Shown one piece after another: positions 1,454 to 26,500 of a stretch of 45,907 bases of DNA. The position numbers and the translations under genes were made by a program. The notes under the pieces are model-generated. The model ran no database searches. It saw nothing but the letters and a program-made list of their open reading frames with translations, and had not been told where the DNA came from. The DNA comes from Actinomycetota bacterium (GTDB lineage Bacteria; Actinomycetota; Acidimicrobiia; Acidimicrobiales; UBA8592): the NCBI GenBank assembly GCA_036687775.1, contig JAYYZG010000071.1, positions 1 to 45,907 on the forward strand, written 5' to 3'. Numbering within the stretch: position 1 is the stretch's first letter; each line of letters begins with the position of its first letter.

Positions 1454-1843
1454 TTATTCTGATGGCGTTGGGAGTTGATTCAAATAAGTTGGCAGGTCAA
1501 AATAGTCACGCCAGAGTGTAATTTCTCCGTTTACTATTTCAAAAATACCTGCGCATGGCATCTCAACCCATCCATGTGGCCACAGAAATTTATCCAATCT
1601 TTCATTCATAACCGTTGATCCAGTACATGTTTGTCTATGAGTAATCCACTCAATCTTTTCGCATCGACCCATCATGGGTTGAAGTTGCTGGAAAATTGCA
1701 TCACGTCCAAAAACTTTTCCCATTGGGACATTGTCGTATTCACAATCTTCGCTCAAAAAAGAAGTTGCCTCTTCTAAATCCATTTCATTAATGCAGTCAA
1801 TGAATTTCGTTACTATTTGATCTGGTGTCATCTGGTCACTCAT
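1454..1843 (-). CDS. Limonene-1,2-epoxide hydrolase family protein (SnoaL/NTF2-like)
   Basis: YDNVPM, VMNERLD and ITLWRDYFD motifs. Start moved to ATG 1843, which gives an ATGA overlap with the upstream stop. Confidence 0.88.
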   Translation of the reverse strand: MSDQMTPDQIVTKFIDCINEMDLEEATSFLSEDCEYDNVPMGKVFGRDAIFQQLQPMMGRCEKIEWITHRQTCTGSTVMNERLDKFLWPHGWVEMPCAGIFEIVNGEITLWRDYFDLPTYLNQLPTPSE

Positions 1844-2508
1844 GGTGCAGTACCTCCCCATTGATCCCAATGCAAAACGGTTTCTAACGGAGGTCGTTTC
1901 GCAGGTTTAAAATCAGTACCTATTGAATATCCGCATGTAATAAGTGCGCATTGGGTAAAGGCTTCATAGTCGATACCCAGAATTTCTGCTGCTTGCTCTT
2001 CAAACATCAAATGGATTGTTGTCCATGCAGTCCCAAGTCCCCTTTCACGTGCAGCGAGCATAAAGCTCCAGGCTCCAGGCAAGATAGAGCCCAGCATCGC
2101 AGCAGAGGCCATGGATGGAAGTCCTTCATATCTACCGGGTAAAATCGGAATCATCATAACAGGAACTTTCTCAAAATTTTCAGCTAGATACGCTGCAGAA
2201 CTCTGAACCCTATTTTGTTGTGATATTCGTTCTTGATCATCTCCTTTATAGGAAGTTTCTACATTTCCTTCCATCTGGGTATACATTTCCCACCCTTGTT
2301 TATAGAGGCTAGCTAGAGCTTCACGTTGTCCTTGATCAGTTACTACTAGCCATTGCCAGCCTTGTGAATTTGAGCCAGTTGGTGACTGCAGAGCTGCCTC
2401 CAAGCATTCTTTAATCACTTCTGGTTCGACTGGCTTCTCAAAATCTAAGCGTTTTCGAACTGCTCTGGTAGTTGAGAGAACTTCATCTACTGTTAAATTA
2501 AGTTTCAT
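1840..2508 (-). CDS. Nitroreductase family flavoprotein
   Basis: TTRAVRKRLD, SPTGSNSQGW and AARERGLGTAWTT motifs. Confidence 0.9.
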   Translation of the reverse strand: MKLNLTVDEVLSTTRAVRKRLDFEKPVEPEVIKECLEAALQSPTGSNSQGWQWLVVTDQGQREALASLYKQGWEMYTQMEGNVETSYKGDDQERISQQNRVQSSAAYLAENFEKVPVMMIPILPGRYEGLPSMASAAMLGSILPGAWSFMLAARERGLGTAWTTIHLMFEEQAAEILGIDYEAFTQCALITCGYSIGTDFKPAKRPPLETVLHWDQWGGTAP

Positions 2509-2539
2509 TTTTTCTCCTTGTCTATAATTATATTAAATT

Positions 2540-3334
2540 TCAATCTTCTTCTAACTTGCTTTGGTATTGATAACTACGATGCGTTCGCCCACCAGCTACG
2601 AGAAGGTTTCTTCCAGTAACCCATCGGGCAGCAGGGCTTGAAAGAAATACTACGGCACTGGCAATATCCTTTGGCGCACCAAGAAACCCAAGCGGGATCG
2701 AAGAAGCGATCTCCTCTTCAGCTCCATCGGCTCCAAGAACTTCAGCGAACATTTCTGTGACAACAGGGCCGGGAGAAACAGCATTGACTCGAATTTTTGG
2801 AGCCAGTTCTATCGCTAAAGTCTCCGTCATGTTCAGCATCGCTGCTTTCGCTGCAGCGTATGGTCCAGTAAAAGGTGAACCTCTCATTCCCGCTCCAGAA
2901 GCAATATTAATAATTGACCCTCCTTCGCTCATTCGTTTAGCTGATGCTTTCGCGCCTTGGAATGCAGTCATCAAATTTAGCTCTATTTGGTCCCGAAAAA
3001 CTTCATCTGGGGTATCAATAAGTTTCCGTGTTTTCTTTTCATTAGACCCTCCAACATTATTTACCCATACATCAATTTTTCCAAACGTGTTAACTGTTAA
3101 ATCGGCTAATTCATCTGATCTATCTCTAATGTCAGTTGCAAAGATAAGGGCTTCTTTCCCGCGTTCTTCAACACCTTTCGCTGTTTCCTCTAAGTCCTCT
3201 TGCCTTCTAGCATTAACAACAATATTGCAGCCTGCTTCCGCTAGCCCCCAAGCAATCCCCCGTCCGATCCCCTGACCTGAACCAGTCACTACAGCAACTT
3301 TACCTTCTAACTTAAAATCATCTAAAAGCCCCAT
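2540..3334 (-). CDS. Short-chain dehydrogenase/reductase
   Basis: TGSGQGIG, NNVGG, YAAAK, RVNAVSPG. Confidence 0.92.
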   Translation of the reverse strand: MGLLDDFKLEGKVAVVTGSGQGIGRGIAWGLAEAGCNIVVNARRQEDLEETAKGVEERGKEALIFATDIRDRSDELADLTVNTFGKIDVWVNNVGGSNEKKTRKLIDTPDEVFRDQIELNLMTAFQGAKASAKRMSEGGSIINIASGAGMRGSPFTGPYAAAKAAMLNMTETLAIELAPKIRVNAVSPGPVVTEMFAEVLGADGAEEEIASSIPLGFLGAPKDIASAVVFLSSPAARWVTGRNLLVAGGRTHRSYQYQSKLEED

Positions 3335-3446
3335 AAGTCCTCTCTTTCTTAGATCCGCACCTTGTTGAAGATTACTCGCATAGAGGCTCTACGAGAAATC
3401 TGTTTTGGACAGGATGTTCTCTTCATCCTCGCACTATTCTCAGAGC

Positions 3447-4307
3447 ATGAGCAGAATGTCAGAGAAAGTAGTAGTAATAGTTGGCGGGGCTAGCGGCTTC
3501 GGCCTTGCCTGCGCAGAACTCTTCGCATCTGAAGGAGCAACCGTGGTAATCGCTGGACGCCGAGGCGATGTAGCAAAAAAGACCGCGGAAAAATTTGATG
3601 GCTTAGGAGTTACTTGGGATATAACTAACTTTGAGCAAGGGAAGGTGGTTAAAGACGACATTATGAAAAATTTTGGCCGTATTGATGCTGCAATAAATTT
3701 CGCTGGTTACGATGACGTCCTCCCTATTAGCCAGATCACCCCAGACCACCTAGAACCAATGGTTAACGTTCAATTTAATGGTGCTATTTATTTTCTTAGG
3801 TTCATGTGCAATGCGATGGCAGAATCTGGAGGAGGATCGGCTATTTTGTGTTCATCTTTAACAGCCCATAACCCAAATGTCGGAAGAGTTGGGTACGCCG
3901 GTTCGAAAGCTGGCCTTGAGTATGTAGCAAAACTCGCCGCTGTTGAATACGGCAACACGCAGGTCCGAATTAACTGCATCGCCCCACATGTGATTGAAAC
4001 AGCAATGACTTCTGAGATGTTCAAAATTCCCTTTGCTGTTGAAACAGTTCGACTGCAAACTCCGCTTAAAAGAATGGGGCATGTTGAGGATGTTGCTAAC
4101 TGCGCGCTTTACCTTGCTTGTGATGAATCTAATTACGTAAATGGAGAAACAATTCGAGTGGATGGTGGGGCTCATACTCAGAAATTGCCATCAGATCTTG
4201 ATTACGCCCTCTTGGGAATCGCTAGACCTAATTTAGCAGCAGGGTTTCCTCGTGCTGTCGTTCCTGATTGGTACAAAGATGAGATAGAAAGTTCTGAAGA
4301 TAGCTAA
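3447..4307 (+). CDS. Short-chain dehydrogenase/reductase
   Basis: GGASGFG, YAGSK, RINCIAP, RVDGG. Start placed at ATG 3447, 6 nt after a TATTCT -10-like hexamer. Confidence 0.9.
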   Translation: MSRMSEKVVVIVGGASGFGLACAELFASEGATVVIAGRRGDVAKKTAEKFDGLGVTWDITNFEQGKVVKDDIMKNFGRIDAAINFAGYDDVLPISQITPDHLEPMVNVQFNGAIYFLRFMCNAMAESGGGSAILCSSLTAHNPNVGRVGYAGSKAGLEYVAKLAAVEYGNTQVRINCIAPHVIETAMTSEMFKIPFAVETVRLQTPLKRMGHVEDVANCALYLACDESNYVNGETIRVDGGAHTQKLPSDLDYALLGIARPNLAAGFPRAVVPDWYKDEIESSEDS

Positions 4308-4312
4308 GTAGT

Positions 4313-5176
4313 TTATTCCCAAAGACGATTAAGGAATTGAATTACTTCTTCCGAGAATATATCGTTTTTATCTCCAGCAACCATGTGGCCCGCTCCGCTG
4401 ACATCAACAAATTCTGCTTGCGGGTATTCGTGCAGAAATTCTCGGGCTTCATTCTCGGTTACTAGCTCGCTCATCTTCCCTCGGACTAAAAGAGTTGGGA
4501 CCTCAATTTTTCTCATCACTTCGTTTAATAATTGAGGGTTTCTCATGTCAGGATTCTTTTCATTTCTTTCTGAAGATATAAAGCTAGGATCCCAATGCCA
4601 AAACCAGCGATTACCGCGCTTCCGAAGATTTTTCTTTAGACCTTCTAAATCTTTGGGTTTCTTACGATATGGGTTATATTCTGCTAGAACTTCAGCAACT
4701 TCTGAGAGTGAAGCGAAACCTACTTCTGAATGTTCGAGCATAAAATCTTTTACTCTTTCCGCACCATTAACGTTCATATTGGGAACTATGTCAACGAGAA
4801 CAAGAGCAGAGATTGAACCTGGACGGACACAACCCTCTAAATACATCCCAACTAGTCCACCTAAAGAAGCACCAACCAATGCTGGGCAAATGCCAATTTC
4901 CTCTAAAACAAAAGCAATATCCTCACTGAATTGGCTTAATTTATACTCACTTTTTTCAGACCAATCCGATCTCCCGTGCCCACGCATATCGAGAGTGATC
5001 GCAAACGCCCCAACATTCGCTAATCTTTTAGCAGTAGAGTCCCAGGAATGGCGCGTCTGCCCTCCTCCATGGAGGAGGAGAACTGGTCTGTCAGAGATAG
5101 GTCCCCATAAATCAGCTTCTATCTTCATACCCGATGAAGTCGTAAATCTTTCCGTGGCTGGCATTGAATCGTTCAT
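4313..5176 (-). CDS. Alpha/beta hydrolase
   Basis: LLHGGGQT, GASLGG nucleophile elbow, GAGHMVAGD. The track's extension to 5590 overlaps the CoA-transferase and is not credible; start is ATG 5176 or 5164. Confidence 0.88.
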   Translation of the reverse strand: MNDSMPATERFTTSSGMKIEADLWGPISDRPVLLLHGGGQTRHSWDSTAKRLANVGAFAITLDMRGHGRSDWSEKSEYKLSQFSEDIAFVLEEIGICPALVGASLGGLVGMYLEGCVRPGSISALVLVDIVPNMNVNGAERVKDFMLEHSEVGFASLSEVAEVLAEYNPYRKKPKDLEGLKKNLRKRGNRWFWHWDPSFISSERNEKNPDMRNPQLLNEVMRKIEVPTLLVRGKMSELVTENEAREFLHEYPQAEFVDVSGAGHMVAGDKNDIFSEEVIQFLNRLWE

Positions 5177-5183
5177 AAACGTC

Positions 5184-6362
5184 TTAGGAAATAGTTCCTG
5201 AATCACGAAGCTCGGTGATTTCCTCCGCTGCGAATCCAATCTCATGTAAGAGCTCATCGGTATGCTCGCAATAAGTTGGTGCAGGAGTTGCTTCTTGCCT
5301 GAGATCACCATTAAATGTCGCCCCTTGGCGAGGAACACGAATCCGTCCAATGACCGGATGTTCCTTCTCTTGAACGGAATCAACTGCAACAACATGAGGG
5401 TCATAAGCCACTTCTGCTGGGTCAAGAACACGAACCGCAGGGACATCAGCTGATTGACATTTCTCCACAGCCTCTTCGGTAGTAAAAGCGCTAAGCATCT
5501 CATCAAATTCCTGATACCAGACTGTGAAATTCTTACTTCGATTACTTGCCGAAGAGAAGCGTTCATCAGTGGCAAGGTCAATTCTGTCAAGCGCTTTACA
5601 AACAGCCTCCCATTGACTGTCAGTTCCTGCTGTCACTGATACCCAACCATCAGAGGTTGAGAAAAGCTGATATGAGCTCAAAAGGTTCGGCAAGTGCAAC
5701 GCATCTTCATCGAGGAGAGTTTCGTGCATCATCACATCAGGCCAATTAAATGCAATGTTTGCCTCAAGCATAGAGACTTCAACGTGCTGGCCTTCCCCAG
5801 TAAGGTTTCTTGCAAATAGCGCTGCAGTTATGGCTTGAGAAGTCGTCAATGCGGCGACTTTATCTGCAACCATGCCACGGATTAAGTTTGGCATTGATTC
5901 AGTTTTCTGCGCACCTGCCCAACCGGAAAGTGCTTGAATAACTGGATCGTAAACCGGTCGTCCGCTGTAAGGCCCCGATGGGCCAAACCCTGACGAGGAA
6001 ACATAGACAAGTGAAGGATTTCTCTCTATCGCAGCTTCAAAGGAGAATCCCAATCTTGCCACAGCACCGGGTCGAAAGCCTTCAATGAAAACATCAGCCT
6101 CCTGAAGAAATGACCATAGAATTTCTTTCGCTTTCTTCTGAGATAGATCTAGCCCGATTGATCGTTTCCCAGCGTTAGCATTTGCAAACCAACCGGACAT
6201 ATTATTCTTTCGACTACCGTACATGCGAAGGTCATCACCACCGGTGGTGTTTTCAACCTTTATAATTTCCGCTCCTTGAGTAGCTAAAAGATGGGTAGCC
6301 CCTGGAACGGCAATCATTTGAGCTAATTCAACTATCTTAATTCCAGCTAAAGGACCTGACAT
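5184..6362 (-). CDS. Family III CoA-transferase (CaiB/BaiF)
   Basis: GPLAGIKIVEL, GAEIIKVE, NAGKRSIGLDL, DVFIEGFRPG, YDPVIQALSG, catalytic Asp in VADK. Confidence 0.93.
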   Translation of the reverse strand: MSGPLAGIKIVELAQMIAVPGATHLLATQGAEIIKVENTTGGDDLRMYGSRKNNMSGWFANANAGKRSIGLDLSQKKAKEILWSFLQEADVFIEGFRPGAVARLGFSFEAAIERNPSLVYVSSSGFGPSGPYSGRPVYDPVIQALSGWAGAQKTESMPNLIRGMVADKVAALTTSQAITAALFARNLTGEGQHVEVSMLEANIAFNWPDVMMHETLLDEDALHLPNLLSSYQLFSTSDGWVSVTAGTDSQWEAVCKALDRIDLATDERFSSASNRSKNFTVWYQEFDEMLSAFTTEEAVEKCQSADVPAVRVLDPAEVAYDPHVVAVDSVQEKEHPVIGRIRVPRQGATFNGDLRQEATPAPTYCEHTDELLHEIGFAAEEITELRDSGTIS

Positions 6363-6383
6363 CGCTCCCCCATTATCACGAAC

Positions 6384-6914
6384 TCATCCATGAGAATAAA
6401 AAGAAGGGTCTTCACTAGGATCTGAAGTTAGATTTACCGGACAATCATTCGCTATGTCGAGGACAGCCAAGATCCTCCCTACACCTAGACAAAATCCAAT
6501 TAATGTTAATAGTTCTAAAATTTGCTGATCAGAGAATACTATCTTCGCCCGTTTCCAGAACTCTTCGTCACTTCGCATGGCCACATGATCAAAAACGAAC
6601 CTTTCAGCCATCTCTGCAGCTAACTTCTCTTGTTCTGAGAATGCACCAATATCATCGTATTCTGCGACTCGGTGGTAAAGTTCGTCTTCTAAACCTTGCT
6701 GCATCGCCGATGCAGACCGAGTATCAAGTCATATATGGCAATCATTGATTTGCGCTATGCGCATACGGGCAACTTCACGGACTCTCGTATCCAAGGAAAC
6801 CTTTGTATACAGAGCATCACCTGTGATCCCAATTCCTTTACCAACATTGGGCTGCAGATACCAAAGTCGGCTCCGTTCCAGACCTTCACCTTCTGGAATA
6901 TTTATTCTTGCCAT
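6384..6914 (-). CDS. AhpD/carboxymuconolactone decarboxylase-like protein, probable selenoprotein (C59-x-x-U62), 176 aa; joins track ORFs 6729-6914 and 6384-6704
   Basis: Both ORFs are in one frame separated only by TGA 6729-6731: LDTRVREVARMRIAQINDCHI-U-LDTRSASAMQQGLEDELY...FSEQEKLAAEMAE...FSDQQILEL. The TGA occupies the second Cys of the AhpD CxxC, and a hairpin follows it. Confidence 0.85.
6695..6731 (-). promoter_or_regulatory. Putative bacterial SECIS element
   Basis: mRNA reads UGA-CUUG-AUACUCGGU-CUGCAUC-GGC-GAUGCAG-CAAG. Perfect 7-bp upper stem (6699-6715), G-initiated apical loop about 20 nt after UGA, and a possible CUUG/CAAG lower stem. Confidence 0.65.
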
Positions 6915-6993
6915 ACTGCCCCCTACTCGTATCCAATCTTTGTACTTTTACTTTAGCTTGACCGCAGGGGGAGAGAAAGACTAAAGAGAAGAC

Positions 6994-7671
6994 ATGGAAG
7001 AATTCAATCTCAAAGAAGTAGACCAATTACTAACCACTACAAGGGCCGTAAGAAAACGGCTCGATCTGGAACGTGAAGTACCTCGAGACTTAATCCTTGA
7101 CTGTGTTAGAGTCTCAACGCAAGCACCTGCTGGGGGCAATTACCAAAAGTGGCGATGGGTTATTGTTGATGATCCAGCCAAAAAACAAATTGTCGCTGAT
7201 GCATACCGAGAAGCTTATGCACCGTACATCGAAGCACAGAAGACCGCTGTCACAGACAAAACTTCAAATGACCCAACGATTAAAAAAATCATGTCCTCAA
7301 GCGACTATCTAGCTGAGATACTTGAAAAAGTACCAGTACTTGCTATTCCATGCTCTCTAGGAACGCCGGCTGATATGGAAGGGGCTTTGGGAGGCGGGCT
7401 TCAAGGCTGGTGGGGATCTGTTCTCCCTGCCGTTTGGAGTTACATGCTCGCAGCTCGTGCCAGAGGGCTCGGCACGGCTTGGACAACTCTCCACCTTCGC
7501 TACAGCGAACGAGTCGGAACTGCACTCGGGATTCCAAATACGGTGACTCAATTAGCCTGTATTCCGACAGCCTATTACTCAGGTCAAGGTTTCCGACCTG
7601 GTAAACGTAAGCCTGCTGAACAAGTCACCTACTGGAATTCATGGAAAGAAACTAAGATTCAATCAACCTAA
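6994..7671 (+). CDS. Nitroreductase family flavoprotein (paralog of 1840-2508)
   Basis: TTTRAVRKRLD, APAGGNYQKW, AARARGLGTAWTTLHL. Confidence 0.9.
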   Translation: MEEFNLKEVDQLLTTTRAVRKRLDLEREVPRDLILDCVRVSTQAPAGGNYQKWRWVIVDDPAKKQIVADAYREAYAPYIEAQKTAVTDKTSNDPTIKKIMSSSDYLAEILEKVPVLAIPCSLGTPADMEGALGGGLQGWWGSVLPAVWSYMLAARARGLGTAWTTLHLRYSERVGTALGIPNTVTQLACIPTAYYSGQGFRPGKRKPAEQVTYWNSWKETKIQST

Positions 7672-7967
7672 GACTTAGTCGCTCCATGTTGCTCAGCAGT
7701 TTTTTCATGATGTCGTATCACTTCATCAACTATAAGTCGGAAGACTTTCTCGCCAAATGAAGGATCCATCCCTGCCATTTGAGCAATTTTATGCAATCGG
7801 GAAATTTGTTGCTGTTCTCGCTCCGGATCCGCCGCAGGTAAATCATTCTCTGCTTTAAACTGACCTACAGCCTTTGTAATCTCAAACCGTTCAGCCAATA
7901 AACAAATCAATTGTTCATCTAATTCATCTATTCGCTCTCTATGTTCATTCAAAACATCATTATCCAT
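7668..7967 (-). CDS. Chorismate mutase (AroQ/type II)
   Basis: LNEHRERIDELDEQLICLLAERF...VGQFK...DPEREQQQI...EVIRHH, the actinobacterial small CM pattern. Confidence 0.9.
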   Translation of the reverse strand: MDNDVLNEHRERIDELDEQLICLLAERFEITKAVGQFKAENDLPAADPEREQQQISRLHKIAQMAGMDPSFGEKVFRLIVDEVIRHHEKTAEQHGATKS

Positions 7968-8156
7968 AGAATCTTTTAACCTCGCTACTCCTTAGTGCTC
8001 AACTCGCCTTGGAATAAATCTACACACTACTAGATCTGTAGCTTTCTAGCGCTTGTTTAACACTAGCCGCTGACAATTTACTTCTTTCTCATACTGTTAT
8101 GGAAAAAAATCGGTTGCTGAATGGAGAATCATTAAATCACGTGACAACATCTGTTC

Positions 8157-9080
8157 ATGATCTCTTCTTCGGAAACTTTTAATGGAACTTGGCCCTATAA
8201 GCCAAGGTTTAGTAATGCGGCTGGGTTTAAGCAGCATTACGTGGACGAAGGACAAGGCGAAGTGATTATCTGCCTTCACGGGGAACCAACATGGGGTTAC
8301 CTTTATCGGAATATGATCGGCCCTTTATCAAAAGATTATCGGGTAATAGTCCCAGACCATATGGGGTTTGGGAAAAGCGAAACACCAACAAATCGTGAAT
8401 ACACCTTAAAAAGCCATACGGAAAATCTGACTGCTCTTATAGATGACCTTGCATTAAATTCCATAACATTTGTTATGCAAGACTGGGGAGGTCCAATAGG
8501 AACTGCATACGCAATAAGGAATCCGGAAAGAATAAGTCGTTTGGTTTACATGAATACACTCGCTGGCTATGGCGAAGGACCCAAAGAGATACTCCGCATC
8601 CGTGATTCCGAGTGGTTTACTTGGATCGGTGAAGGATTAGAGAATGGAAGAACAGAAGCCGTTTTGAGGAATGCTGGCTCAACCATGCTCTCAATTATGA
8701 ATCGCCTAGGCATCTCTAACACAAGCATTATCAACGACACGTGGATAGAAGCTTATAGTGCTCCCTTCCCTAACTATGAAAGCTCTATAGGAGCATATGA
8801 ATTTCCTATTGACGCGTATCTCGGAAGAATAGCTGACTATGTCATCGAAGGGCTAAGTGGTCTTGAGAATCTCACGTCTACACCAGCAATTCTGATAGAG
8901 GGCTTAGACGATAAGGCAATCCCCCCAGAGTTCGCGATAGCGGATTTTAAATCACTCTGGCCTTCGTCTCCTGTCATCGAACTTGAAGGAGTCGGGCATT
9001 TTTGCCAAGAAGATGCCCCCGAAGTTCTGGTGGCTAGTATTCAGCAATTTATGCAAACCAACAGCATTAACTTGGATTGA
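8157..9080 (+). CDS. Haloalkane dehalogenase-like alpha/beta hydrolase
   Basis: HYVDEG, LHGEPTWGYLYR, PDHMGFGKS, QDWGG, AYSAPFP, GHFCQED. Confidence 0.85.
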   Translation: MISSSETFNGTWPYKPRFSNAAGFKQHYVDEGQGEVIICLHGEPTWGYLYRNMIGPLSKDYRVIVPDHMGFGKSETPTNREYTLKSHTENLTALIDDLALNSITFVMQDWGGPIGTAYAIRNPERISRLVYMNTLAGYGEGPKEILRIRDSEWFTWIGEGLENGRTEAVLRNAGSTMLSIMNRLGISNTSIINDTWIEAYSAPFPNYESSIGAYEFPIDAYLGRIADYVIEGLSGLENLTSTPAILIEGLDDKAIPPEFAIADFKSLWPSSPVIELEGVGHFCQEDAPEVLVASIQQFMQTNSINLD

Positions 9081-9089
9081 TAGAAATAA

Positions 9090-10784
9090 TTGATCATGTC
9101 TAATGCAGAAGAAATAACCAAAGAGATACAAGCTGAAATTAGAGGTCCTGGTGGGTTGTGGGAGACTACTAATGAAACTGTGCTTGGCGAGAATTTAGTA
9201 GTCTTTAAGAACCGTCATCGCAGCATTAGCGAAATGCTCAAAGCGAATACAGCACAATGGTTAGGTAGAGAATGTCTTGTCCTAGGGGACAACCGAATCT
9301 CTTATGAAGAACTCCAAAGCCGAGTTGAATCTACTGCCTACCGTTTCCAGAGCACGTATGGGATCAACCAAGGAGACAGAGTTGCTATTCTGGCCGCAAA
9401 TTGCCCTGAATGGGTGATTAGTTTCTTTGCTGCTACACAAATTGGAGCTATCGTTTCAGCTCTTAATGGCTGGTGGACCGAAACCGAAATCAAACATGCT
9501 ATTGAATTAACCGACCCTTCAATCATCGTTGGAGATACACGACGATTGGCTCGAGCTGGATCTCTACTGAAGAACTTCCCGGTAATTGACATCAATGACT
9601 CCCCAGACTTTTTTGAACCTAGCGGAGAAGAACCGACTGAAACGGTAATTGATGAGGATGATCCAGCATTGATTCTTTTCACTTCCGGAACCACAGGGAA
9701 ATCTAAAGGGGCTCTCCTTTCTCACCGAAGTCTAATTGGCTTTGTTGATGGGACCGTCCACAATGGCTATGAAAAAAAACTAATAGCACTCAAGCTTTTG
9801 GACGTTGACCCCTCTGCCCTTCCTACTACTCAAGATATTATTTTAGCTACGTCACCTTTATTCCATATTTCCGGTTTGCCCGCTGGCGTATTAATGAACA
9901 TGGCGAATGGTGCAAAAATTATTTTTCGTTCTGGGCGCTTTGATCCAGCTGACGTGCTCCGTTTAATAGAAAAAGAACAAATAACAAATTGGACTGCTAT
10001 CGGTGATATGGGGCCTCGCGTAATGGCTCACAGCGATTTCGCAAGTAGAGATACCTCTTCACTAACTCGTGTAAGTAGCGGAGGGGCTCATTTATCAGAG
10101 AATATGCAGCGGTTAATTTCTGAACATTTTCCTCAAGCAGCTGGAGCTATAGGTCAAGGCTACGGAAGCAGTGAATCGTGCGGAGTTATCACCTCAATTG
10201 GTGGACAAGATTTCAAAAATCACCCATCTTCAGCGGGTCGAGCTTGTTTAGGCTACGAAATTGAAATACGGGATGCTGAAAACAACCCTCTTCCTGATGG
10301 AGAAGAAGGAGAGATCCATGTGAAATCTGCGTATTCGATGCTCAAGTATTGGGGGAATCCTCAGGCAACAACTGAAACACTAAAGAGTGGTAGATGGTTA
10401 GCTATGGGAGATATAGGGAAAATGGTTGACGGAAGGCTCTACATCAATTCTAGAGCGAGAGACATGATCATAAAATCTGGAGAAAATATCTATCCTGTTG
10501 AGATCGAACATAGACTTGAAAGTCACCCTGATATTCACGAAGTTGCTATTCTCGGCATAGATCATATTCAGAAAGGGCAGGAAGTCAAAGCTATCGTTGT
10601 ATTGACCCCCAGTAGCACGTTTAATCCTGAGGCATTTACTGAATGGTGTCGAGAAACATTAGCTGAATATAAAGTCCCAGATCACTGGGAGCATCGAATT
10701 GAGCCGCTTCCAAGAACGGCAAGTGGGAAAGTGATTAAAGGTGGTCTAACAGGCGACCGTGAAGTAAGTGACTACGAAGATTAA
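9090..10784 (+). CDS. AMP-dependent (long-chain) acyl-CoA synthetase
   Basis: FTSGTTGKSKG, GYGSSE, MGDIG, RARDMIIKSGENIYPVEIE, PRTASGK. Confidence 0.92.
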   Translation: MIMSNAEEITKEIQAEIRGPGGLWETTNETVLGENLVVFKNRHRSISEMLKANTAQWLGRECLVLGDNRISYEELQSRVESTAYRFQSTYGINQGDRVAILAANCPEWVISFFAATQIGAIVSALNGWWTETEIKHAIELTDPSIIVGDTRRLARAGSLLKNFPVIDINDSPDFFEPSGEEPTETVIDEDDPALILFTSGTTGKSKGALLSHRSLIGFVDGTVHNGYEKKLIALKLLDVDPSALPTTQDIILATSPLFHISGLPAGVLMNMANGAKIIFRSGRFDPADVLRLIEKEQITNWTAIGDMGPRVMAHSDFASRDTSSLTRVSSGGAHLSENMQRLISEHFPQAAGAIGQGYGSSESCGVITSIGGQDFKNHPSSAGRACLGYEIEIRDAENNPLPDGEEGEIHVKSAYSMLKYWGNPQATTETLKSGRWLAMGDIGKMVDGRLYINSRARDMIIKSGENIYPVEIEHRLESHPDIHEVAILGIDHIQKGQEVKAIVVLTPSSTFNPEAFTEWCRETLAEYKVPDHWEHRIEPLPRTASGKVIKGGLTGDREVSDYED

Positions 10785-10794
10785 AGTTCGTGAT

Positions 10795-12957
10795 TTAGCT
10801 AAATTCAAATAACTCATCTTCACTGATTCGGGCAACTTTTATAGGGATTGCACTCATTACTGGCAAGCCAGTGATTCTGTCATATCCGGAATCAGATGTG
10901 ACTAGACGGTTAGTTGGAGTTCCAATATCCCTAACTTTCTCATCTGTTAAGGAAAGACCACCCCAAGAATGAGACATCGCAATAACGCCCTGTTTTATAT
11001 CTGGGTCATTTTCTGCAACACCAACCACTGATGACCGTGGCGATGATATCCGCAAAAGATCTCCAGATTCAGCACCAAGATTTTTAAGATCATCAGGATG
11101 CACATACGCATAATTAGTTGTTGCTACACGTGCTAACCCTGGTAGCTCAGACCCTAAAGAATTCAGTGCATGTTTGAGTCGTCTACCCACCAATAAGAAG
11201 GGGAATTCAGAATCGTTAAATATTCCAAGAAGGTCACTCCCAGATTTTTCGTTTCTAACCTCTTGGAGTTCTAAATAGACATCTTGAGGACAAACAGCAA
11301 ATTTTGCATCGTTATCTGGGTCCCCTGGCAGAACAATAATTGGATTGTCATGAATTACTCCCTTATTTTTTCGCCATTCACTTATGGGCAAGCGGGAATT
11401 TCCATACACATAATCTATGACATCACCATCGGTCAATCTCGTTTCAATTGGTAGATCCCCACCTGGCAAAGCGAGTTTGGTTCCTGCCCTCTTCGCTAAA
11501 CCTACGAACACTTCCCATTCATTTAGAACGTCATCTCCCGAATCAATAACGCGGTCGGTGTAGTTCGTGTAAACAGCAGGGAATCGCCTATCCATAACAT
11601 TTGGAACATCTTCCCTTTCCAGTTGTAATCGCGGGGCGAAAATGTAATCAGATAGTTCCGCTGTAGCTGTCATCCGATGGTCAATAACAACTAACAGTTC
11701 CAAACTTTGAAGGGCTTCAAGAGTTTTTTGCTGGTCGGGCCAAGCTTGCACAGGGTTCCCTCCTGAGACGATTAGTGCTCGAACTTGTCCGTCTCCTTCC
11801 AAAAGAATCTCATCATTTAAAGCATTCGTTAACATTTCATCAGCAAGACCATGTAAGCCTCTAACACGGTGAGGAGCTCCAGGAGTTGGGTTACTCGGTG
11901 CTTTGACCTGCGCACGGCGAGTATCACCGGGTGAAAGCATATAAGGACTCTCCAACGACTCTCCTGCTCTCAAAACCCGCCCACAGAGAACATTTAGTGT
12001 CAGTGTGAGCGATTCCATCAGTGTCCCATGAGGAGCCATGTTCGGACCTGTCCCAGACCCAGCTGTTCCTCTTGGACCTTCGGCAAAAATTTTCGCAGCA
12101 GTTTTAATATCTTCAGGGGAAACTCCACAACGAGTTGCGGCATATTCGGGAGTAAAGAGACCTGTTCCTTCTTTCAAGTGCTTGAGCTGACCACTTTCAA
12201 CAAATTCATTACAAAAATCTTTGTCATATAAATTATTGCTGAGAATAACATTGATCATTGCCGCTAGAAGGGTGGGGTCTTCGCCAGGCTTTACCTGCAG
12301 CCAAAGGTCAGCCTGTCTCGCTAATTCACTTCTCCTCGGATCAATTACTATTAGCTTCAGACCTCTTTTCTTCGCTTCCCGAAGCTTTACGAAGGGATCA
12401 GTTCCTTGAAGCCCACTTGCCGGTCCATAACTAGAAACAAGTGGGTTATATCCAACTGCTAACAACACATCCGCGTCGGAAAAATTTTGCCACCCAGCCT
12501 CCCAAGAACCCAAACGAAGAAGAGAGCTCCTGTGGGCGGGTTGGTCGATAGTCAAAGAAGTGTAGAAGGAAGGCGAGTCGATACCTTTATGCCACGATGA
12601 AGCTACGGCGACCCCAACACTATTTTGATACGCTCCTGTCCCAATGTAAGTCGCCACCGAACGAGGGCCATGCTCCGAAACAATTTGTTCAAGCTTCTGA
12701 GCGATTTCATTTAGAGCATCATTTGATGAGATCTGGTCAAAAACCCCAGAAGGGTTTTTCTTTAGAGGAAACCTTAGGCGACTAGGATTATGGAACTGGT
12801 CTGCTAATTGCCGCCCCTTTATACATGAATAACCTTTAAAGAGAGGATCGTTTTTATCACCTCGGACGCCTACGATTCTGCTGCTATCTTCAATATCGAT
12901 TTCCATTGGGCAAGCTGCGTGACAGACCCGACAAAATGTTTTTTTCGTAACAATCAT
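10795..12957 (-). CDS. Molybdopterin-dependent oxidoreductase (DMSO reductase/MopB superfamily), cytoplasmic
   Basis: N-terminal CRVCHAAC...CIKG Fe-S motif, GYNPLVS, IVIDPRRSE, PGEDPTL, C-terminal VHPDD...SHSWG. No Tat signal. Start likely ATG 12957. Confidence 0.9.
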   Translation of the reverse strand: MIVTKKTFCRVCHAACPMEIDIEDSSRIVGVRGDKNDPLFKGYSCIKGRQLADQFHNPSRLRFPLKKNPSGVFDQISSNDALNEIAQKLEQIVSEHGPRSVATYIGTGAYQNSVGVAVASSWHKGIDSPSFYTSLTIDQPAHRSSLLRLGSWEAGWQNFSDADVLLAVGYNPLVSSYGPASGLQGTDPFVKLREAKKRGLKLIVIDPRRSELARQADLWLQVKPGEDPTLLAAMINVILSNNLYDKDFCNEFVESGQLKHLKEGTGLFTPEYAATRCGVSPEDIKTAAKIFAEGPRGTAGSGTGPNMAPHGTLMESLTLTLNVLCGRVLRAGESLESPYMLSPGDTRRAQVKAPSNPTPGAPHRVRGLHGLADEMLTNALNDEILLEGDGQVRALIVSGGNPVQAWPDQQKTLEALQSLELLVVIDHRMTATAELSDYIFAPRLQLEREDVPNVMDRRFPAVYTNYTDRVIDSGDDVLNEWEVFVGLAKRAGTKLALPGGDLPIETRLTDGDVIDYVYGNSRLPISEWRKNKGVIHDNPIIVLPGDPDNDAKFAVCPQDVYLELQEVRNEKSGSDLLGIFNDSEFPFLLVGRRLKHALNSLGSELPGLARVATTNYAYVHPDDLKNLGAESGDLLRISSPRSSVVGVAENDPDIKQGVIAMSHSWGGLSLTDEKVRDIGTPTNRLVTSDSGYDRITGLPVMSAIPIKVARISEDELFEFS

Positions 12958-13070
12958 TACCTTTGAATTTACATGATTTTCTTTGTAAAGATTCAATGCG
13001 TGCTTAGATGATCTTCCCTAGAATGTGATTGTGAGGTGGCGAATGCTGCCAGAAGGTGAGAGTGTTAAGC

Positions 13071-13913
13071 ATGAGCTACGAATGTTTTGAAGTAACAGAA
13101 ATTGGGAGTGTTGCCCACGTCCAACTAAGCCGCGGTGACAGCCTAAATACTATGATTCCTGCTTTCTGGAGAGAATTGCCAGAAATCATTAATGCTATAA
13201 GTGACGAAGGGAAGGCCAGAGCGATTGTTATCTCTTCAACTGGTCGCCATTTCTGTGCTGGTATGGACCTATCTGTGTTCACGGGCGGTGGTCTAAATGA
13301 TGGGACACGTCCCGAAAGAGGAAGAAGTAACGCCGTAACTCGAGGTGGCGCCCTTCACTTACAAGAAAGCTTTACTTGTTTTGAAAAAGCTAGGATGCCG
13401 GTCTTGACTGCCATACAGGGTGGTTGTGTAGGAGGAGCAGTAGACATGGTTACGGCGGCCGACATGCGTTATGTTTCTGAAGACGCTTGGTTCTGTATTC
13501 AGGAAATTAACATTGGGATGACTGCTGATGTTGGGACACTTCAAAGACTTCCGAAGTTGATCCCTGAGGGAATTGCTCGAGAGTTAGCTTATACGGGACG
13601 ACGAATGTCTGCCCAAAGAGCGCTAGAGGTGGGCTTAGTGAACCAAATTTTCCCATCTCACGACGAACTCATTGAAGGGGTGCTGGAAATTGCAGCAGAA
13701 ATTGCAACTAAGTCTCCTCTTGCAATCTGGGGGACAAAAGAAAGCGTGAACTTTACTCGAGACCATTCAGTGGCGGATAGCTTAAACTTCATAGCAACTT
13801 GGCAAGCAGGAATGTTTCAACCACAAGATATGGCGGCGGTGTTTGAGGCTCAATCAAAAAATGAAGACCCAGAATTTGACGACCTACCTCCCGTTCGAAA
13901 AGGTTTAGGTTAA
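13071..13913 (+). CDS. Enoyl-CoA hydratase/isomerase (dienoyl-CoA isomerase-like)
   Basis: FCAGMDL, AIQGGCVGGAVD, QEINIGMTADVGTLQRLP. Confidence 0.92.
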   Translation: MSYECFEVTEIGSVAHVQLSRGDSLNTMIPAFWRELPEIINAISDEGKARAIVISSTGRHFCAGMDLSVFTGGGLNDGTRPERGRSNAVTRGGALHLQESFTCFEKARMPVLTAIQGGCVGGAVDMVTAADMRYVSEDAWFCIQEINIGMTADVGTLQRLPKLIPEGIARELAYTGRRMSAQRALEVGLVNQIFPSHDELIEGVLEIAAEIATKSPLAIWGTKESVNFTRDHSVADSLNFIATWQAGMFQPQDMAAVFEAQSKNEDPEFDDLPPVRKGLG

Positions 13914-15478
13914 GTAGAAAGTAGCCTTCTGCCTATTAATTTCAAGCATAAAGTTTCATCTGCGCCTTCAAATATTGAGAGAACTCGTGCATCAACAAAG
14001 AGACGGCTAACCGCGTATTCTTCAGCGTATCCGAAGCCACCGTGCATTTGCATTGCTTCCCTAGTTACCCATTCAGCGGCTTTACATGCATAAGCTTTAA
14101 CCATCGCCGCTTCCAAAGCACCTGATCCGTTCGAGAGAAGTTCCCCTACTTTGTACGTGTACTGTCGGCAAGCCTGTATAAGTGCCACCATGCGCCCTAG
14201 TTTGATTTGCGTGAGTTGATAATCTGACAAAGACTGACCGAAAACCTTACGCTCTGCACAGTATTCTAATGCTTCTTCGTAAGCTCTTTGCATTACTCCA
14301 ACTGCACGAGCAGCTGTTTGCAATCTTCCATTTTCAAAACCCGCCATTTGCAGGTAGAAACCTTTCCCTTCTCCATCTGAACCGCCAATAAGGGCTTCAG
14401 CTGGAACCTGCCAATCTTGAAAAGATATTTCGAAACTATGCATACCTCGGTAGCCAAGTGTCGGAATCGCCCTCCCTTGCATTCGCCCTCCAGAGTCTTG
14501 CTGTAAATCAAAATTGTGTCCTGCAATACGTTCTTTTCTAACAACAAAGACGCTTAGACCTCGATGACCTGCGGATACATCAGGGTTTGTTCGGGCAAGG
14601 ACCATTAAGAGATCAGCTCGCCCCGCAAAAGTACACCATGTCTTTACGCCGTTGAGTTCCCATAAACCATCATCTTTTTTTCGAGCTGACATAGTTATTG
14701 ACGCAACATCGCTCCCATGGTCTGGTTCTGTGACCGCTACTGCTGACATGTTTTCCCCGGAGGCTATTGCAGGTAAAAGGTCTTTCTTTTGTTTTTCTGT
14801 TCCGCCGTTTTCTATAGCCCTAGCCAAGATTTCTGGTCTGGTGATAAGAGACCCTCCTATACTTAGCGACGTTTTAGAAAGTTCTTCAGTGGCTATCACC
14901 ATCGCGTGCATATCTTGGCTTGAGCCAGTAGCACTACCCCCGTATTCAATTGGGATGGATAGCCCAAAACATCCAAGGTCAGCTAAGCCACTAATAATTG
15001 ACTCTGGAACGTCCAAATCTTTCCGGTGTACTTCCTCAGCTATGTCCACAATATGGTCCTGTCCGAAGCGTCGAAAGGTTTGAGCTACGAGTTCCATGTC
15101 GTCGCTTAGGTGGGATTTCCCCGGATTTTGCGAGTTCTGTGCATACGACTCCGGTGTCCCATGGCTAGTAACGTATGCACGCACAAGTTCAAGATCGGAA
15201 TCATCTAATTCCCATAGTTGTTCGCATCCAAAGGAAATAGTAGCTACTGACCGGAGTACATCTGAACAAAATATTTCAACGAGTTGGCTTTCATCAGGAC
15301 CATTGTCAGCGTAATCTAAGAAACTTTCTGCAATCGCGTGGGCTGAACTCGCATGGGCAATGTCGTAAAGGAAAGCTTGGTGAGCTTCGGGTTTTTCCTG
15401 CGACCGGAGATAAGAGATTCCGGAATCGATGATGTTTTTTGCGCTTTTCAGGGCATCCGAGGCTTTCTCACGATCCAC
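13910..15478 (-). CDS. Long acyl-CoA dehydrogenase, (2S)-methylsuccinyl-CoA dehydrogenase (Mcd)-like
   Basis: ACAD core with about 130-aa N-terminal extension; GSLITRPEI, TEPDHGSD, LGYRGM, RLQTAARAVG, DARVLSIFEGA. GGAGG RBS before GTG 15478. ACAD call is secure; Mcd specificity is less so. Confidence 0.8.
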   Translation of the reverse strand: MDREKASDALKSAKNIIDSGISYLRSQEKPEAHQAFLYDIAHASSAHAIAESFLDYADNGPDESQLVEIFCSDVLRSVATISFGCEQLWELDDSDLELVRAYVTSHGTPESYAQNSQNPGKSHLSDDMELVAQTFRRFGQDHIVDIAEEVHRKDLDVPESIISGLADLGCFGLSIPIEYGGSATGSSQDMHAMVIATEELSKTSLSIGGSLITRPEILARAIENGGTEKQKKDLLPAIASGENMSAVAVTEPDHGSDVASITMSARKKDDGLWELNGVKTWCTFAGRADLLMVLARTNPDVSAGHRGLSVFVVRKERIAGHNFDLQQDSGGRMQGRAIPTLGYRGMHSFEISFQDWQVPAEALIGGSDGEGKGFYLQMAGFENGRLQTAARAVGVMQRAYEEALEYCAERKVFGQSLSDYQLTQIKLGRMVALIQACRQYTYKVGELLSNGSGALEAAMVKAYACKAAEWVTREAMQMHGGFGYAEEYAVSRLFVDARVLSIFEGADETLCLKLIGRRLLST

Positions 15479-15563
15479 GGTATCCCCTCCAATCACTTTA
15501 TAGCCTGATAGTTGATCTCAGTGTAGGTCTTTGGTGGTTCTCCGGCACTCTTGAAGGGCGAAT

Positions 15564-23527: not shown

Positions 23528-26500
23528 ATGACTGAAAATCACTCATCTAAGAAATTGGCAAAATCGTATATCCCATCTGAAGCAGAAACAGCTATTAGCG
23601 CGTTGTGGTCGCAGGTTAGCGCATTTCAGGCAGAACCTCCTTCAAATGAAAAAAAACCATATTCAATTGTTATCCCCCCACCAAATGTGACTGCAGCATT
23701 ACATTTGGGTCACGCGTTAAATAACACCATCCAAGATGTTCTTATTCGATATCACCGAATGGCCGGTTACGCCACTATGTGGATGCCAGGTACCGACCAT
23801 GCTGGAATAGCGACGCAGGCAGTGATTGAGAAGCGACTGCTCAATGATGGAACATCAAGACTAGAAATCGGCAGAGATGCTTTTATCCAAAGAACTCAAG
23901 AGTGGAAGGACGAATACGAAGGGATCATTATTGACCAACTCATCGCTATGGGGGCTTCATGTGATTTTGATCGCACGAGATTCACGATGGATGAGGTTTG
24001 TGCAAACGCTGTTCGGCATGCCTTCTACATTTTATTTCAGGATGGATTGATCTACCGCGGAAAACGTCTAGTCAACTGGGACCCCGTTTCTATGACTGCT
24101 CTAGCTGATGATGAAGTAGAGATGGAAGAAGTTGAAGGTTTCATGTGGTACCTGAAATACCCCCTTGATGATGGATCAGGGTATGTAACAGTTGCAACCA
24201 CTCGTCCGGAAACAATGCTTGGTGATACGGCCGTAGCTGTCAACCCCAATGATTCTGTTGCTAGTGATTTAGTAGGGAAAATGGTTCGATTGCCAATCGT
24301 AAATCGGCTAATTCCAATCATTGCTGATGATTATGTCATCATGGCTGACCCAGAAAGTGAAGATTCCAAAGCACGCTATGCTTCTGGGTTCTTAAAAGTC
24401 ACACCAGCACATGATCCTAATGACTGGGATATAGGTCTTCGGCATGATTTACCTGTTATTAATATCATGGGTCCAGATGCAAAAATTTCAAATCATTATG
24501 GCTGGGAGGATGTTTCTGAGGAATCTTCTAAGTTCATTGGTTTGACTAGGGAAACAGCCAGGGAGGCTGTAATTGAATGGTTTAATGAAAATAATCTTCT
24601 TGAGGAGATTAAGCCTTACACGCATTCGGTTGGTCATTCTTATCGTAGTCATGTCCCCATTGAACCTTGGTTAAGTTCACAATGGTACGTTGCCGTAACT
24701 GATGACCGTTTGCGGGGTTCCGCTTTACGAGCTCAAAAGGAGTCTCAAGTTCCTTCTCTCCCGGATGACGTCACAATGAGGTCAACTTTGAAGGGTGATG
24801 GAGATCTGTCATTTGCTCCGCCAAGGTATGCTCGGACATACCATTCTTGGCACGAAGGGATCCGAGATTGGTGCATCTCACGCCAATTATGGTGGGGGCA
24901 TCAGATTCCAGTTTGGGTGCGTTTGGTTCCAATGGAGGAAAGCCCTGTCCCATTAAGTACCAATGGTTTAGACGCCGGTATCAATATTGAAAGTGAATGG
25001 ACCCAGAAGGGCGCTGCTCACATGGTTCGAAGAGTTGGCGATGACATGATTGAAGAAGCTATTTGTGTCCCTCCAGAAAATACGTTAAAGCGGATCAACT
25101 TAGAAACACCGATTTCTGAAATTGAATTGATTTCCCAGATTGAAAGCGGAGGGTTTACCCGTGACCCTGATGTCCTTGATACATGGTTCTCGTCAGCGCT
25201 CTGGCCACTTTCTACTATGGGTTGGCCATGGCCGAAAGATTTCCCCGAGACTGAAGGAATTCTTGATTTCTATAACCCGACCTCTGTCCTATCGACAGCG
25301 CGGGAGATTATAACTCTATGGGTTAGCCGAATGGTTATGTTCAGTCGCTATTTTCTAGATGGACAACTGCCATTTAAGGATGTTTTTATCCATGCGATGG
25401 TTCAGGATGGGCATGGTCAGAAGATGTCGAAAAGCCTTGGAAATGGTGTAGACCCTCGCGATATTATATTTAGCCATGGCGCGGATGCTATGCGCTTTAC
25501 TTTGGTTCAGATGACTACCGATACGCAGGACGTCAGAATGCCAGTTGAAATGGTTTGCCCTCACACGGGCACGGCGTTTATTCCAGAATTTATAACTACT
25601 CCTGCCGGATATCTAGTTGCTGCGCCTATCCAATCTTCACCTACAGACGCTGCAAAGAAAATGGTAAGCGCTTACGGTTCAGCTTCGGGATCCGCCGAAC
25701 CCGACGACCTTATCCCCTTGGCGAGAAACACTTCATCGAAGTTTGATTTAGGGAGAAATTTCGCAAACAAGCTTTGGAATGCGACGCGATTCGCCTTAGG
25801 AAGGATTGATACCTCATCAGATGCAGAAATTTCTCTAGAGTCTCGTCCATTTGCCGATAAGTGGATCGTTGCTCGCTTAGCTGAAACAATTACGACATTA
25901 GAGAGTGCTTTAGCTTCTTACCAGTTTAATATTTTCGCTGACACTCTTTATGATTTTGTTTGGCATGATGTTTGTGATCGTTATTTAGAAGTCATTAAAC
26001 CAACGATTGATAATGACCCGCAGCAGCAGGCGATTCTCGCAAATATTCTTGATGCTGTGCTGAGAATCATGCACCCCGTTTGCCCATTCGTCACAGAAAC
26101 CCTCTGGCCTTATGTACGAGAAGCAAAACGGTCAAGCTTAGACGAAGTTGCGCTACCTGACTCAGAGATTCTTGCTATGGCTAATTGGCCAAAGGTTAGT
26201 CTTAACGTTTTACAATCTGATGAAATATTAAAAACTTTCAAAAGAGTTGATACTTTAGTTGGCCTTCTCAGATCAGCCCGCGCTGAACAAAAAGTTAAAC
26301 CAAAACAAATGATCCAACTTCATGTTTCACCATCTGTCCATGACCTCTTAACTTCTACGAATGGTTTCGTAGAAGTTCTTGCCGGAATTGAAGATGTCAA
26401 TATTCTTAATGAGACTGCTGACCTGCAATCAACTCTTTTAACGTTTGAAGGTGAAGAGATACAGATTTCTGGGCTTGTAAACGAAGTTGACCTTGAGGCT

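What the first reader, a model, noticed from the sequence alone, without database searches (positions are those of the whole stretch)
6384..6914. Hidden CxxU selenoprotein (AhpD/CMD fold) with an in-frame SECIS-like hairpin
Seen: two track ORFs form one frame broken only by TGA at 6729-6731, in NDC-H-I-*-LDTR. A perfect stem CUGCAUC/GAUGCAG starts 13 nt downstream, with a G-initiated loop about 20 nt from the UGA and a possible CUUG/CAAG basal stem. Known: AhpD-like proteins use a CxxC at this position, CxxU versions are a recognised selenoprotein family in marine metagenomes, and bacterial SECIS elements lie immediately 3' of UGA with a G in the apical loop. Inference: this is a 176-aa Sec protein that standard annotation would split, in a phylum where Sec use is sporadic. 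The downstream His of the usual CxxCxxxH is Arg here, so it may not be a classical AhpD peroxidase.
Basis: partly seen in the sequence, partly recalled or inferred. Interest (0 to 1): 0.87.

Follow-up and report, generated by a model that had tools for sequence, protein, structure and literature searches.

The report
Known AhpD-like marine selenoprotein gene

Summary
Confirmed, but already known. The minus-strand frame 6914-6384 has one internal TGA, at codon 62 in C-H-I-U-L-D-T-R.

For selenocysteine (Sec):
- All 21 genus-level orthologues keep TGA; of 79 homologous loci, 35 have TGA and 44 a Cys codon.
- The stem at nt 14-19/25-30 after TGA is complete in 34 of 35 TGA loci and 0 of 44 Cys loci, with compensatory changes at 5 of 6 pairs.
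- The genome holds tRNA-Sec, SelA and SelB; SelD was not found in this 70%-complete assembly.

Corrections: the basal CUUG/CAAG stem is not conserved (7 of 21), and Sec use is not sporadic here (SelA in 64 of 100 class genomes).

Known: Dataset S1 of Zhang and Gladyshev 2008 (PMC2398784) lists four reads of this orthologue with U under 'AhpD-like 1'. The scan noted it in other genomes too.

Still open: Arg replaces the AhpD relay His across the subfamily, a third Cys is usually kept, and Sec/Cys switched several times. Sec insertion and activity are untested.

The parts
6384..6914 (-). Single CDS, 176 aa, AhpD/CMD-fold CxxU protein (Pfam CMD PF02627 above cut-off, residues 30-104)
   Evidence: 21 orthologous CDS of 176 codons with one TGA at codon 62
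6729..6731 (-). In-frame TGA, codon 62, predicted selenocysteine (second position of CxxU)
   Evidence: TGA in 35 and TGC/TGT in 44 of 79 homologous loci, no other codon; contigs of three runs bridge it
6699..6715 (-). Predicted bacterial SECIS: 6-bp stem nt 14-19/25-30 after UGA, 5-nt loop, invariant G at nt 21 (window 6708); overlaps codons 67-72
6738..6740 (-). Cys59, first position of CxxU (aligns to PA0269 Cys48)
   Evidence: invariant in 44 of 44 aligned sequences; alignment
6717..6719 (-). Arg66, at the place of the relay His of AhpD (PA0269 His55)
   Evidence: invariant; Arg in 122 of 126 representatives with the N-x-C-x-x-C motif; PMC3141380
6774..6776 (-). Glu47, aligns to the relay Glu36 of PA0269
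   Evidence: invariant; alignment
6441..6443 (-). Cys158, a third Cys in the C-terminal tail, usually but not always kept in the subfamily; role unknown
   Evidence: 29 of 34 TGA loci, 44 of 44 Cys loci, 52 of 66 representatives, but 2 of 6 and 11 of 18 class-level loci
6919..6924 (-). Ribosome-binding-site-like AGGGGG, 4 nt before the ATG
   Evidence: read directly from the sequence

Best explanation
This is one gene whose UGA at codon 62 is very likely decoded as selenocysteine, giving a 176-residue AhpD-fold protein predicted to work as a CxxU thiol/selenol oxidoreductase.

Decoding (about 0.97). The hairpin 13 nt after the UGA would bind SelB carrying Sec-tRNA(Sec); this follows the established bacterial mechanism. 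The gene, the conserved hairpin and selA/selB/selC are shown. Insertion itself is inferred.

Chemistry (inferred, about 0.6). Sec62 sits where the second Cys of AhpD sits, which I recall as the attacking residue in M. tuberculosis AhpD. It would attack a peroxide or an oxidised thiol as a selenolate. Cys59 would resolve it to a selenenyl-sulfide. A cellular dithiol (lipoyl protein, as for AhpD), possibly via Cys158, would re-reduce it. Glu47 of the AhpD relay is kept but the relay His is Arg66, so the nucleophile would be stabilised electrostatically rather than by the His-water relay. The substrate is unknown; the lipid/aromatic catabolism neighbourhood makes organic (lipid) peroxides or oxidised thiols from that metabolism the most likely.
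For: TGA kept in 21 of 21 full-length genus orthologues, with synonymous changes outnumbering replacements on both sides of it (562:142 and 939:482). Only TGA or Cys codons occur at this site in 79 of 79 loci.

Stem complete in 34 of 35 TGA loci against 0 of 44 Cys loci. 99.5% of cells paired, 5 of 6 pairs with changes on both sides, against 19-51% when slid. RNAalifold finds the same stem unprompted. Of 58 amino-acid-invariant 4/6-fold codons only 4 never vary (codons 67-70); of 37 two-fold codons only 2 (72-73). Mean pairs 5.98 against 3.84 under synonymous recoding, 0 of 1000.

tRNA-Sec at 52.3 bits, over the 47 cut-off; SelA; SelB. Among 30 class genomes with a homologue, TGA versions occur in 8 of 17 with SelA and 0 of 13 without (Sec position and stem checked for 6 of the 8; kin are not independent).

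Model pLDDT 87.6; best fold matches are PA0269, Atu0492, Mlr4105 and related AhpD-like proteins, TMq 0.65-0.72. PA0269 has weak Cys-dependent H2O2-reducing activity (PMC3141380). Listed with U under 'AhpD-like 1' in PMC2398784 Dataset S1.
Against: SelD was not found in this assembly (69.6% complete), although it passes the cut-off in 23 of 41 genomes searched. There is no protein-level evidence of Sec insertion. RNA evidence is one 149-nt contig piece (6580-6728) in one metatranscriptome, which does not cover the TGA. His55 is called invariant and essential in PA0269-type proteins (PMC3141380) and is Arg here, so peroxidase activity cannot be carried over safely. No NCBIfam family is met at its cut-off (best NF053654 46 of 310 bits; TIGR00778 21.8 of 27.8). 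The one promoter scan found nothing above chance.
Confidence: 0.8

Rival explanations
1. Sec is inserted, but the protein is not a peroxidase or thiol reductase. The CxxU-x3-R site, with His110 and Cys158, would act on an organic substrate of the surrounding catabolic cluster (for example reductive dehalogenation, as Bmp8 does on this fold) or bind a metal or metalloid.
For: His to Arg across the subfamily. Conserved Cys158 and His110. The debrominase Bmp8 is among the fold and profile matches (TMq 0.67; E 3e-5). Neighbours are a nitroreductase-fold protein, a CoA-transferase, hydrolases including a haloalkane-dehalogenase-like one, and an acyl-CoA ligase.
Against: Bmp8 ranks below PA0269-type proteins. 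Cys158 is missing in several Sec branches (2 of 6 class-level TGA loci). Neighbours vary outside the genus. I could not read the Bmp8 paper.
Confidence: 0.15
2. The TGA is a true stop: a pseudogene, or a split pair of 61-aa and 106/114-aa proteins as public gene calls have it.
For: TGA is a normal stop in this genome (282 of 939 long ORFs). An in-frame ATG follows at codon 71 (codon 63 in some relatives), and both halves are on record as separate proteins.
Against: The break is at exactly the Cys codon of intact homologues and is always TGA, never TAA or TAG. It is followed by a covarying stem and was seen only in SelA-positive genomes. The split would cut the catalytic helix.
Confidence: 0.03
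3. The TGA is an assembly error, or is read as Trp, Gly or Cys under another genetic code.
For: None found.
Against: Contigs from three studies and 20 other genomes carry TGA. TGA ends 282 of 939 long ORFs, including this gene. The genome's tRNA-Trp has anticodon CCA, and at default sensitivity the only UCA tRNA is the Sec type.
Confidence: 0.01

Closest known systems
'AhpD-like 1' selenoproteins (COG2128, CxxU) of the Global Ocean Sampling survey, Zhang and Gladyshev 2008 (PMC2398784); family first named in Zhang et al. 2005 (PMC1088965)
   Same: Dataset S1 lists four reads with C-H-I-U between the headings '#AhpD-like 1' and '#AhpD-like 2'. One matches window residues 40-75 exactly; JCVI_READ_1095469497106 matches residues 51-176 at 113 of 126 positions (both compared by eye). 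Reads with the motifs of the genome's three paralogues (CPIU, CGYU, CHTU) are listed as well.
   Different: In the passages I saw, the paper does not assign these reads to Acidimicrobiia, does not separate the Arg-bearing subfamily from the CxxU-x3-H majority, and gives no covariation test. The 2005 supplement did not contain this orthologue's motifs (0 hits for three motifs).
PA0269 / Atu0492-type AhpD-like proteins (PDB 2O4D, 2IJC, 7XW1, 2GMY; Pfam CMD)
   Same: Same fold (TMq 0.62-0.71) and the best PDB profile hits (E 1e-13 to 1e-11); relay Glu and first Cys align.
   Different: Second Cys is Sec, relay His55 is Arg66, Tyr50 is Ile61, and there is an extra C-terminal Cys.
Mycobacterium tuberculosis AhpD (Glu118-Cys130-His132-Cys133-His137)
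   Same: Two-helix CxxC-type motif of the same superfamily.
   Different: Distant structural match only (TMq 0.49, E 1.6). Both His are absent. No ahpC was seen among the 11 neighbours scanned. TIGR00778 is below cut-off.
CxxC-x3-R carboxymuconolactone-decarboxylase-family proteins of non-tuberculous mycobacteria and Acidimicrobiia
   Same: 38-42% identical Cys orthologues with the same Glu, Arg, His110 and C-terminal Cys.
   Different: Cys codon instead of TGA, and no SECIS (0 of 44 complete stems). Named from family membership only.

Membership tests
Bacterial selenoprotein gene | In-frame TGA aligning to Cys in homologues and kept in orthologues | tested here: met
Bacterial selenoprotein gene | Stem-loop just 3' of UGA with a G in a small apical loop (as described in PMC1088965) | tested here: met
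   bSECISearch itself was not available
Bacterial selenoprotein gene | selA, selB and selC in the genome | tested here: met
Bacterial selenoprotein gene | selD in the genome | tested here: inconclusive
   not found in the 69.6%-complete assembly; over the cut-off in 23 of 41 genomes searched, itself with an in-frame TGA in the genus
Bacterial selenoprotein gene | Sec physically present at the UGA | not testable with these tools
   needs 75Se labelling or MS
AhpD-like 1 selenoproteins (COG2128, CxxU) | CMD/AhpD domain with CxxU | tested here: met
   PF02627 36 bits, cut-off 23
AhpD-like 1 selenoproteins (COG2128, CxxU) | Close orthologues among the family's published members | tested here: met
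   four reads in Dataset S1 of PMC2398784
Classical AhpD peroxidase/reductase | Relay Glu 12 residues before the first Cys | tested here: met
   Glu47 aligns to PA0269 Glu36 (PMC3141380)
Classical AhpD peroxidase/reductase | Relay His 4 residues after the second Cys | tested here: not met
   Arg66; Arg in 122 of 126 representatives with the motif
Classical AhpD peroxidase/reductase | TIGR00778 or TIGR01926 cut-off | tested here: not met
   21.8 of 27.8 and 22 of 81.8 bits
Classical AhpD peroxidase/reductase | Peroxide or AhpC reduction activity | not testable with these tools
   needs an enzyme assay
NCBIfam NF053654 YciW-related (seleno)protein / NF041047 GSU3128 family | Curated score cut-off | tested here: not met
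   46 of 310 and 20.2 of 110 bits

The most novel reading that the evidence does not exclude
The CxxU/C-x3-R proteins form an uncharacterised branch of the AhpD fold with their own chemistry: an Arg-stabilised selenolate and a three-residue Sec62-Cys59-Cys158 relay, serving lipid or aromatic catabolism, possibly recharged by the neighbouring nitroreductase-fold flavoprotein. The branch was ancestrally Sec-encoding in Acidimicrobiia, with one SECIS register, and reverted to Cys several times, including in the line that gave the mycobacterial homologues. That would run against the published view that Sec-to-Cys changes are few and mostly confined to FdhA and SelD (PMC1794560).
Probability: 0.25. 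Interest if true: 0.45.

Novelty: already known. Interest (0 to 1): 0.2.

Why it matters
It corrects annotation. Public records hold this gene as two fragments, mostly named 'hypothetical' where named at all, and the same genome hides at least six further selenoprotein genes of known families. So marine Acidimicrobiales of this group use selenium more than their annotations show. It ties published GOS 'AhpD-like 1' reads to a host group and gives a clean, covariation-supported actinobacterial SECIS for reporter tests. It does not reveal a new family or a new decoding mechanism. The open question is enzymology: my searches turned up no activity data for an AhpD-like selenoprotein or for the Arg-bearing subfamily.

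Tried and rejected
1. Single-sequence folding as proof of the SECIS: not significant (z -0.6 to -1.7; 4.8% background).
2. Basal CUUG/CAAG stem: rejected (7 of 21; absent from the consensus fold).
3. A vestigial SECIS in Cys homologues as proof of Sec-to-Cys direction: not found. Observed pairing equals the synonymous expectation in all five Cys groups (for example 1.98 against 2.05 in 42 loci).
4. The nitroreductase-fold neighbour as a dedicated partner. It is adjacent and divergent in 19 of 20 close TGA loci and downstream in 40 of 44 Cys loci, but in 0 of 15 more distant TGA loci and 0 of 26 class-level loci with 1.5-kb flanks. That amounts to two lineages only, in a genome with six such paralogues. 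Kept as a weak lead; no complex prediction was run.
5. Position of Cys158 relative to the active site: not resolvable. The model gives no coordinates here, and the strand pairing of 65-67 with 161-163 lies where pLDDT falls below 50.
6. Promoter/terminator scan: at chance level.
7. RNA evidence: one short contig piece in run X20 that stops at 6728; no conclusion on expression.
8. The Bmp8 paper was not held. The protein atlas did not answer.
9. Fusions among the longer representatives: apart from tandem duplications of the domain, those seen look like frameshift read-through artefacts.
10. The genome-wide coding-score scan for further Sec genes was noisy; only family-confirmed cases are counted.

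Full report
Observation. The feature is on the minus strand. Table 11 gives two ORFs, 6914-6729 (61 aa) and 6704-6384 (106 aa). Reading TGA as Sec gives one 176-residue frame with U62 in N-D-C-H-I-U-L-D-T-R, preceded by AGGGGG 4 nt before the ATG. After the TGA come 13 nt and then CTGCATC-GGC-GATGCAG (6715-6699). Alone this is unremarkable: z -0.6 to -1.7 against shuffles, and 3056 of 64030 TGA triplets in the genome have a loosely similar hairpin.

The TGA is real and conserved. Among 41 genomes searched, 20 of the 22 others of the genus hold a full-length orthologue (75-94% identical), each with one TGA. The remaining two (62% and 72% complete) gave only weak paralogue hits. The TGA is at codon 62 in all of them. 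A scan of species-representative genomes returned 80 loci, of which 79 cover the site: 35 TGA, 40 TGC, 4 TGT (these overlap the genomes). The closest are marine Acidimicrobiales MAGs; most Cys forms are mycobacterial. Contigs from three marine runs of three studies bridge the codon (the run flagged as a possible source was left out). Both sides of the TGA evolve as protein: synonymous to replacement differences are 562:142 upstream and 939:482 downstream. TGA is otherwise a normal stop, ending 282 of 939 long ORFs.

The hairpin is under RNA-level selection. The pairs nt 14-19/25-30 are all formed in 34 of 35 TGA loci and 0 of 44 Cys loci; G21 is in 35 of 35 and 28 of 44. On a gap-free alignment of 35 TGA sequences (33 distinct), 99.5% of cells pair, 5 of 6 pairs show changes on both sides, 0 of 500 shuffles reach the covariation score, and slid controls give 19-51%. 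RNAalifold returns the same six pairs. Relatedness inflates the shuffle test, but two further controls agree. In 21 genus orthologues, only 4 of 58 amino-acid-invariant 4/6-fold codons never vary (67-70), and only 2 of 37 two-fold codons (72-73): these are the hairpin's codons plus one. With amino acids fixed and codons redrawn, 41 TGA loci show 5.98 pairs against 3.84 expected (0 of 1000) and G21 in 41 against 14.

Machinery. The genome has tRNA-Sec (UCA; 52.3 bits, cut-off 47), and SelA next to SelB on contig C107. SelD was not found; the assembly is 69.6% complete, and SelD passes its cut-off in 23 of 41 genomes searched. In 100 class genomes at least 90% complete, 64 have SelA, so Sec use is common in this class. 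A 2026 preprint reports it as universal in Actinomarina (10.64898/2026.04.03.716425; passages seen). Thirty of those 100 genomes have a homologue: TGA forms occur in 8 of 17 with SelA and 0 of 13 without. I verified position and stem for 6 of the 8; one was not fetched and one did not match my motif pattern.

The protein. Pfam CMD is met; no NCBIfam family reaches its cut-off. The AlphaFold model (pLDDT 87.6, tail 162-176 unreliable) matches AhpD-like structures 2PFX, PA0269, Mlr4105 and Atu0492 at TMq 0.65-0.72, Bmp8 at 0.67 and M. tuberculosis AhpD at 0.49. The profile alignment to PA0269 places Glu47, Cys59, Sec62 and Arg66 on Glu36, Cys48, Cys51 and His55, the relay described in PMC3141380, which calls His55 invariant and essential (passages seen). 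The Arg is a subfamily trait, not a Sec adaptation. It is in all 44 Cys loci, in 122 of 126 representatives with the motif among the best 150 of 4629 hits, and in all four CxxU paralogues of this genome. A C-terminal Cys (158) is common but not universal.

How it most likely works. Shown: one conserved frame, a covarying hairpin at SECIS distance, and selA/B/C. Inferred from the established bacterial pathway: SelB binds the hairpin and delivers Sec at codon 62. Inferred from fold and family: Sec62 attacks a peroxide or oxidised thiol, Cys59 resolves, and a dithiol re-reduces it (AhpD uses lipoyl proteins; PMC8945050, passages seen). That the second Cys is the attacking one in AhpD is recalled, not from a call. 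Arg66 would stabilise the anion in place of the His relay. The gene lies head-to-head with a nitroreductase-fold gene and 21 nt upstream of a CaiB-type CoA-transferase, among hydrolases, SDRs and an acyl-CoA ligase. This order is kept in the genus but not beyond it. A nitroreductase neighbour recurs in the mycobacterial loci but not in other Acidimicrobiia, so it is a weak lead.

Evolution. Sec and Cys forms interleave. A 61-row tree needs 4 changes. A 40-row tree without the long branches needs 3 (bootstrap 3-5) and rejects one Sec clade (AU p 0.008; rows were a hand-picked subset, and I had seen the first tree). All in-group Sec forms share one SECIS register, and Cys clades, including the mycobacterial one, nest among them. 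This fits one gain and several reversions, but the root rests on two Cys rows, several forks are weak, and no nucleotide trace of a SECIS remains in Cys forms. PMC1794560 reports Sec-to-Cys changes as few (passages seen).

What is known. AhpD-like CxxU selenoproteins were named in 2005 (PMC1088965; passages seen and supplement searched). They number 299 plus 70 in the GOS survey (PMC2398784; passages) and appear in a 2026 review table and in BSepDB (PMC13188914, PMC13326102; passages). Searching GOS Dataset S1 found four reads with C-H-I-U under '#AhpD-like 1': one identical to residues 40-75 and one about 90% identical over residues 51-176 (by eye). It also found reads with the motifs of the three paralogues. 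So this orthologue has been a published predicted selenoprotein since 2008, though public gene calls still split it. I did not search BSepDB's data or supplements, or the bioRxiv supplements (closed); they may already assign these genes to Acidimicrobiia. Earlier agents of this scan reached the same reading in four other genomes.

Verdict. Observation confirmed. Interpretation supported, apart from the basal stem and the claim of sporadic Sec use. It is a member of the AhpD-like 1 selenoprotein family, but not of classical AhpD (His relay not met). Novelty: already known. Interest 0.2. The most novel open reading, a distinct Arg/three-residue chemistry with repeated Sec-to-Cys reversion, has probability 0.25 and interest 0.45.

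Noticed in passing
G000:C86 TGA at 14032 (-), C76 TGA at 11104 (+), C28 TGA at 6246 (+); loci L127-L129: Three more AhpD-like CxxU-x3-R genes in the same genome (CPIU, CGYU, CHTU), each with a hairpin after the TGA. C86 shares the window gene's register; by eye C76 and C28 use different registers, suggesting separate SECIS origins. Reads with all three motifs are in GOS Dataset S1.
   Followed up: partly
G000:C41 TGA at 2439 (+), C77 TGA at 11910 (-), C100 TGA at 3044 (-); loci L130-L132: Two PrdB-like UxxC genes (below the TIGR04483 cut-off) and one UGSC-family gene (NF041046 above cut-off), each with an in-frame TGA and a G-loop hairpin. With the four AhpD-like genes, at least seven selenoprotein genes in a 70%-complete 1.55-Mb assembly.
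   Followed up: partly
G000:C34 TGA at 4963 (+), C52 TGA at 25296 (-), C38 TGA at 8018 (+): Further unverified Sec candidates from a noisy scan: S-W-U-G-C, a peroxiredoxin-like T-P-G-U, and a short M-U-A-A-E-E frame.
   Followed up: no
class-level sample: SelA passes its cut-off in 64 of 100 genomes of the class at least 90% complete; SelD of this genus itself carries an in-frame TGA.
   Followed up: partly
window 1454-15496: Dense lipid/aromatic catabolism cluster: two nitroreductase-fold paralogues (1840-2508, 6994-7671), SDRs, alpha/beta hydrolases including a haloalkane-dehalogenase-like one (8157-9080), an acyl-CoA ligase whose best match is steroid-24-oyl-CoA synthetase (9090-10784, below cut-off), and a molybdopterin oxidoreductase (10795-12996).
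   Followed up: partly
L079-L125 (mycobacterial and related Cys loci), about 3490-4140: In 40 of 44 Cys loci a nitroreductase-family gene follows the homologue directly on the same strand; in L079 a Fur-family regulator lies nearby.
   Followed up: partly
L056: A contig titled as a Methanobacteriota archaeon carries the gene at 84% identity with the Acidimicrobiales gene order, most likely a mis-binned or mislabelled record.
   Followed up: no
X2, X3, X5 contigs laid at window 6675-6715: Contigs match only the 36-41 nt around the hairpin (5 differences) and then diverge, probably paralogous or related genes sharing the SECIS sequence.
   Followed up: no
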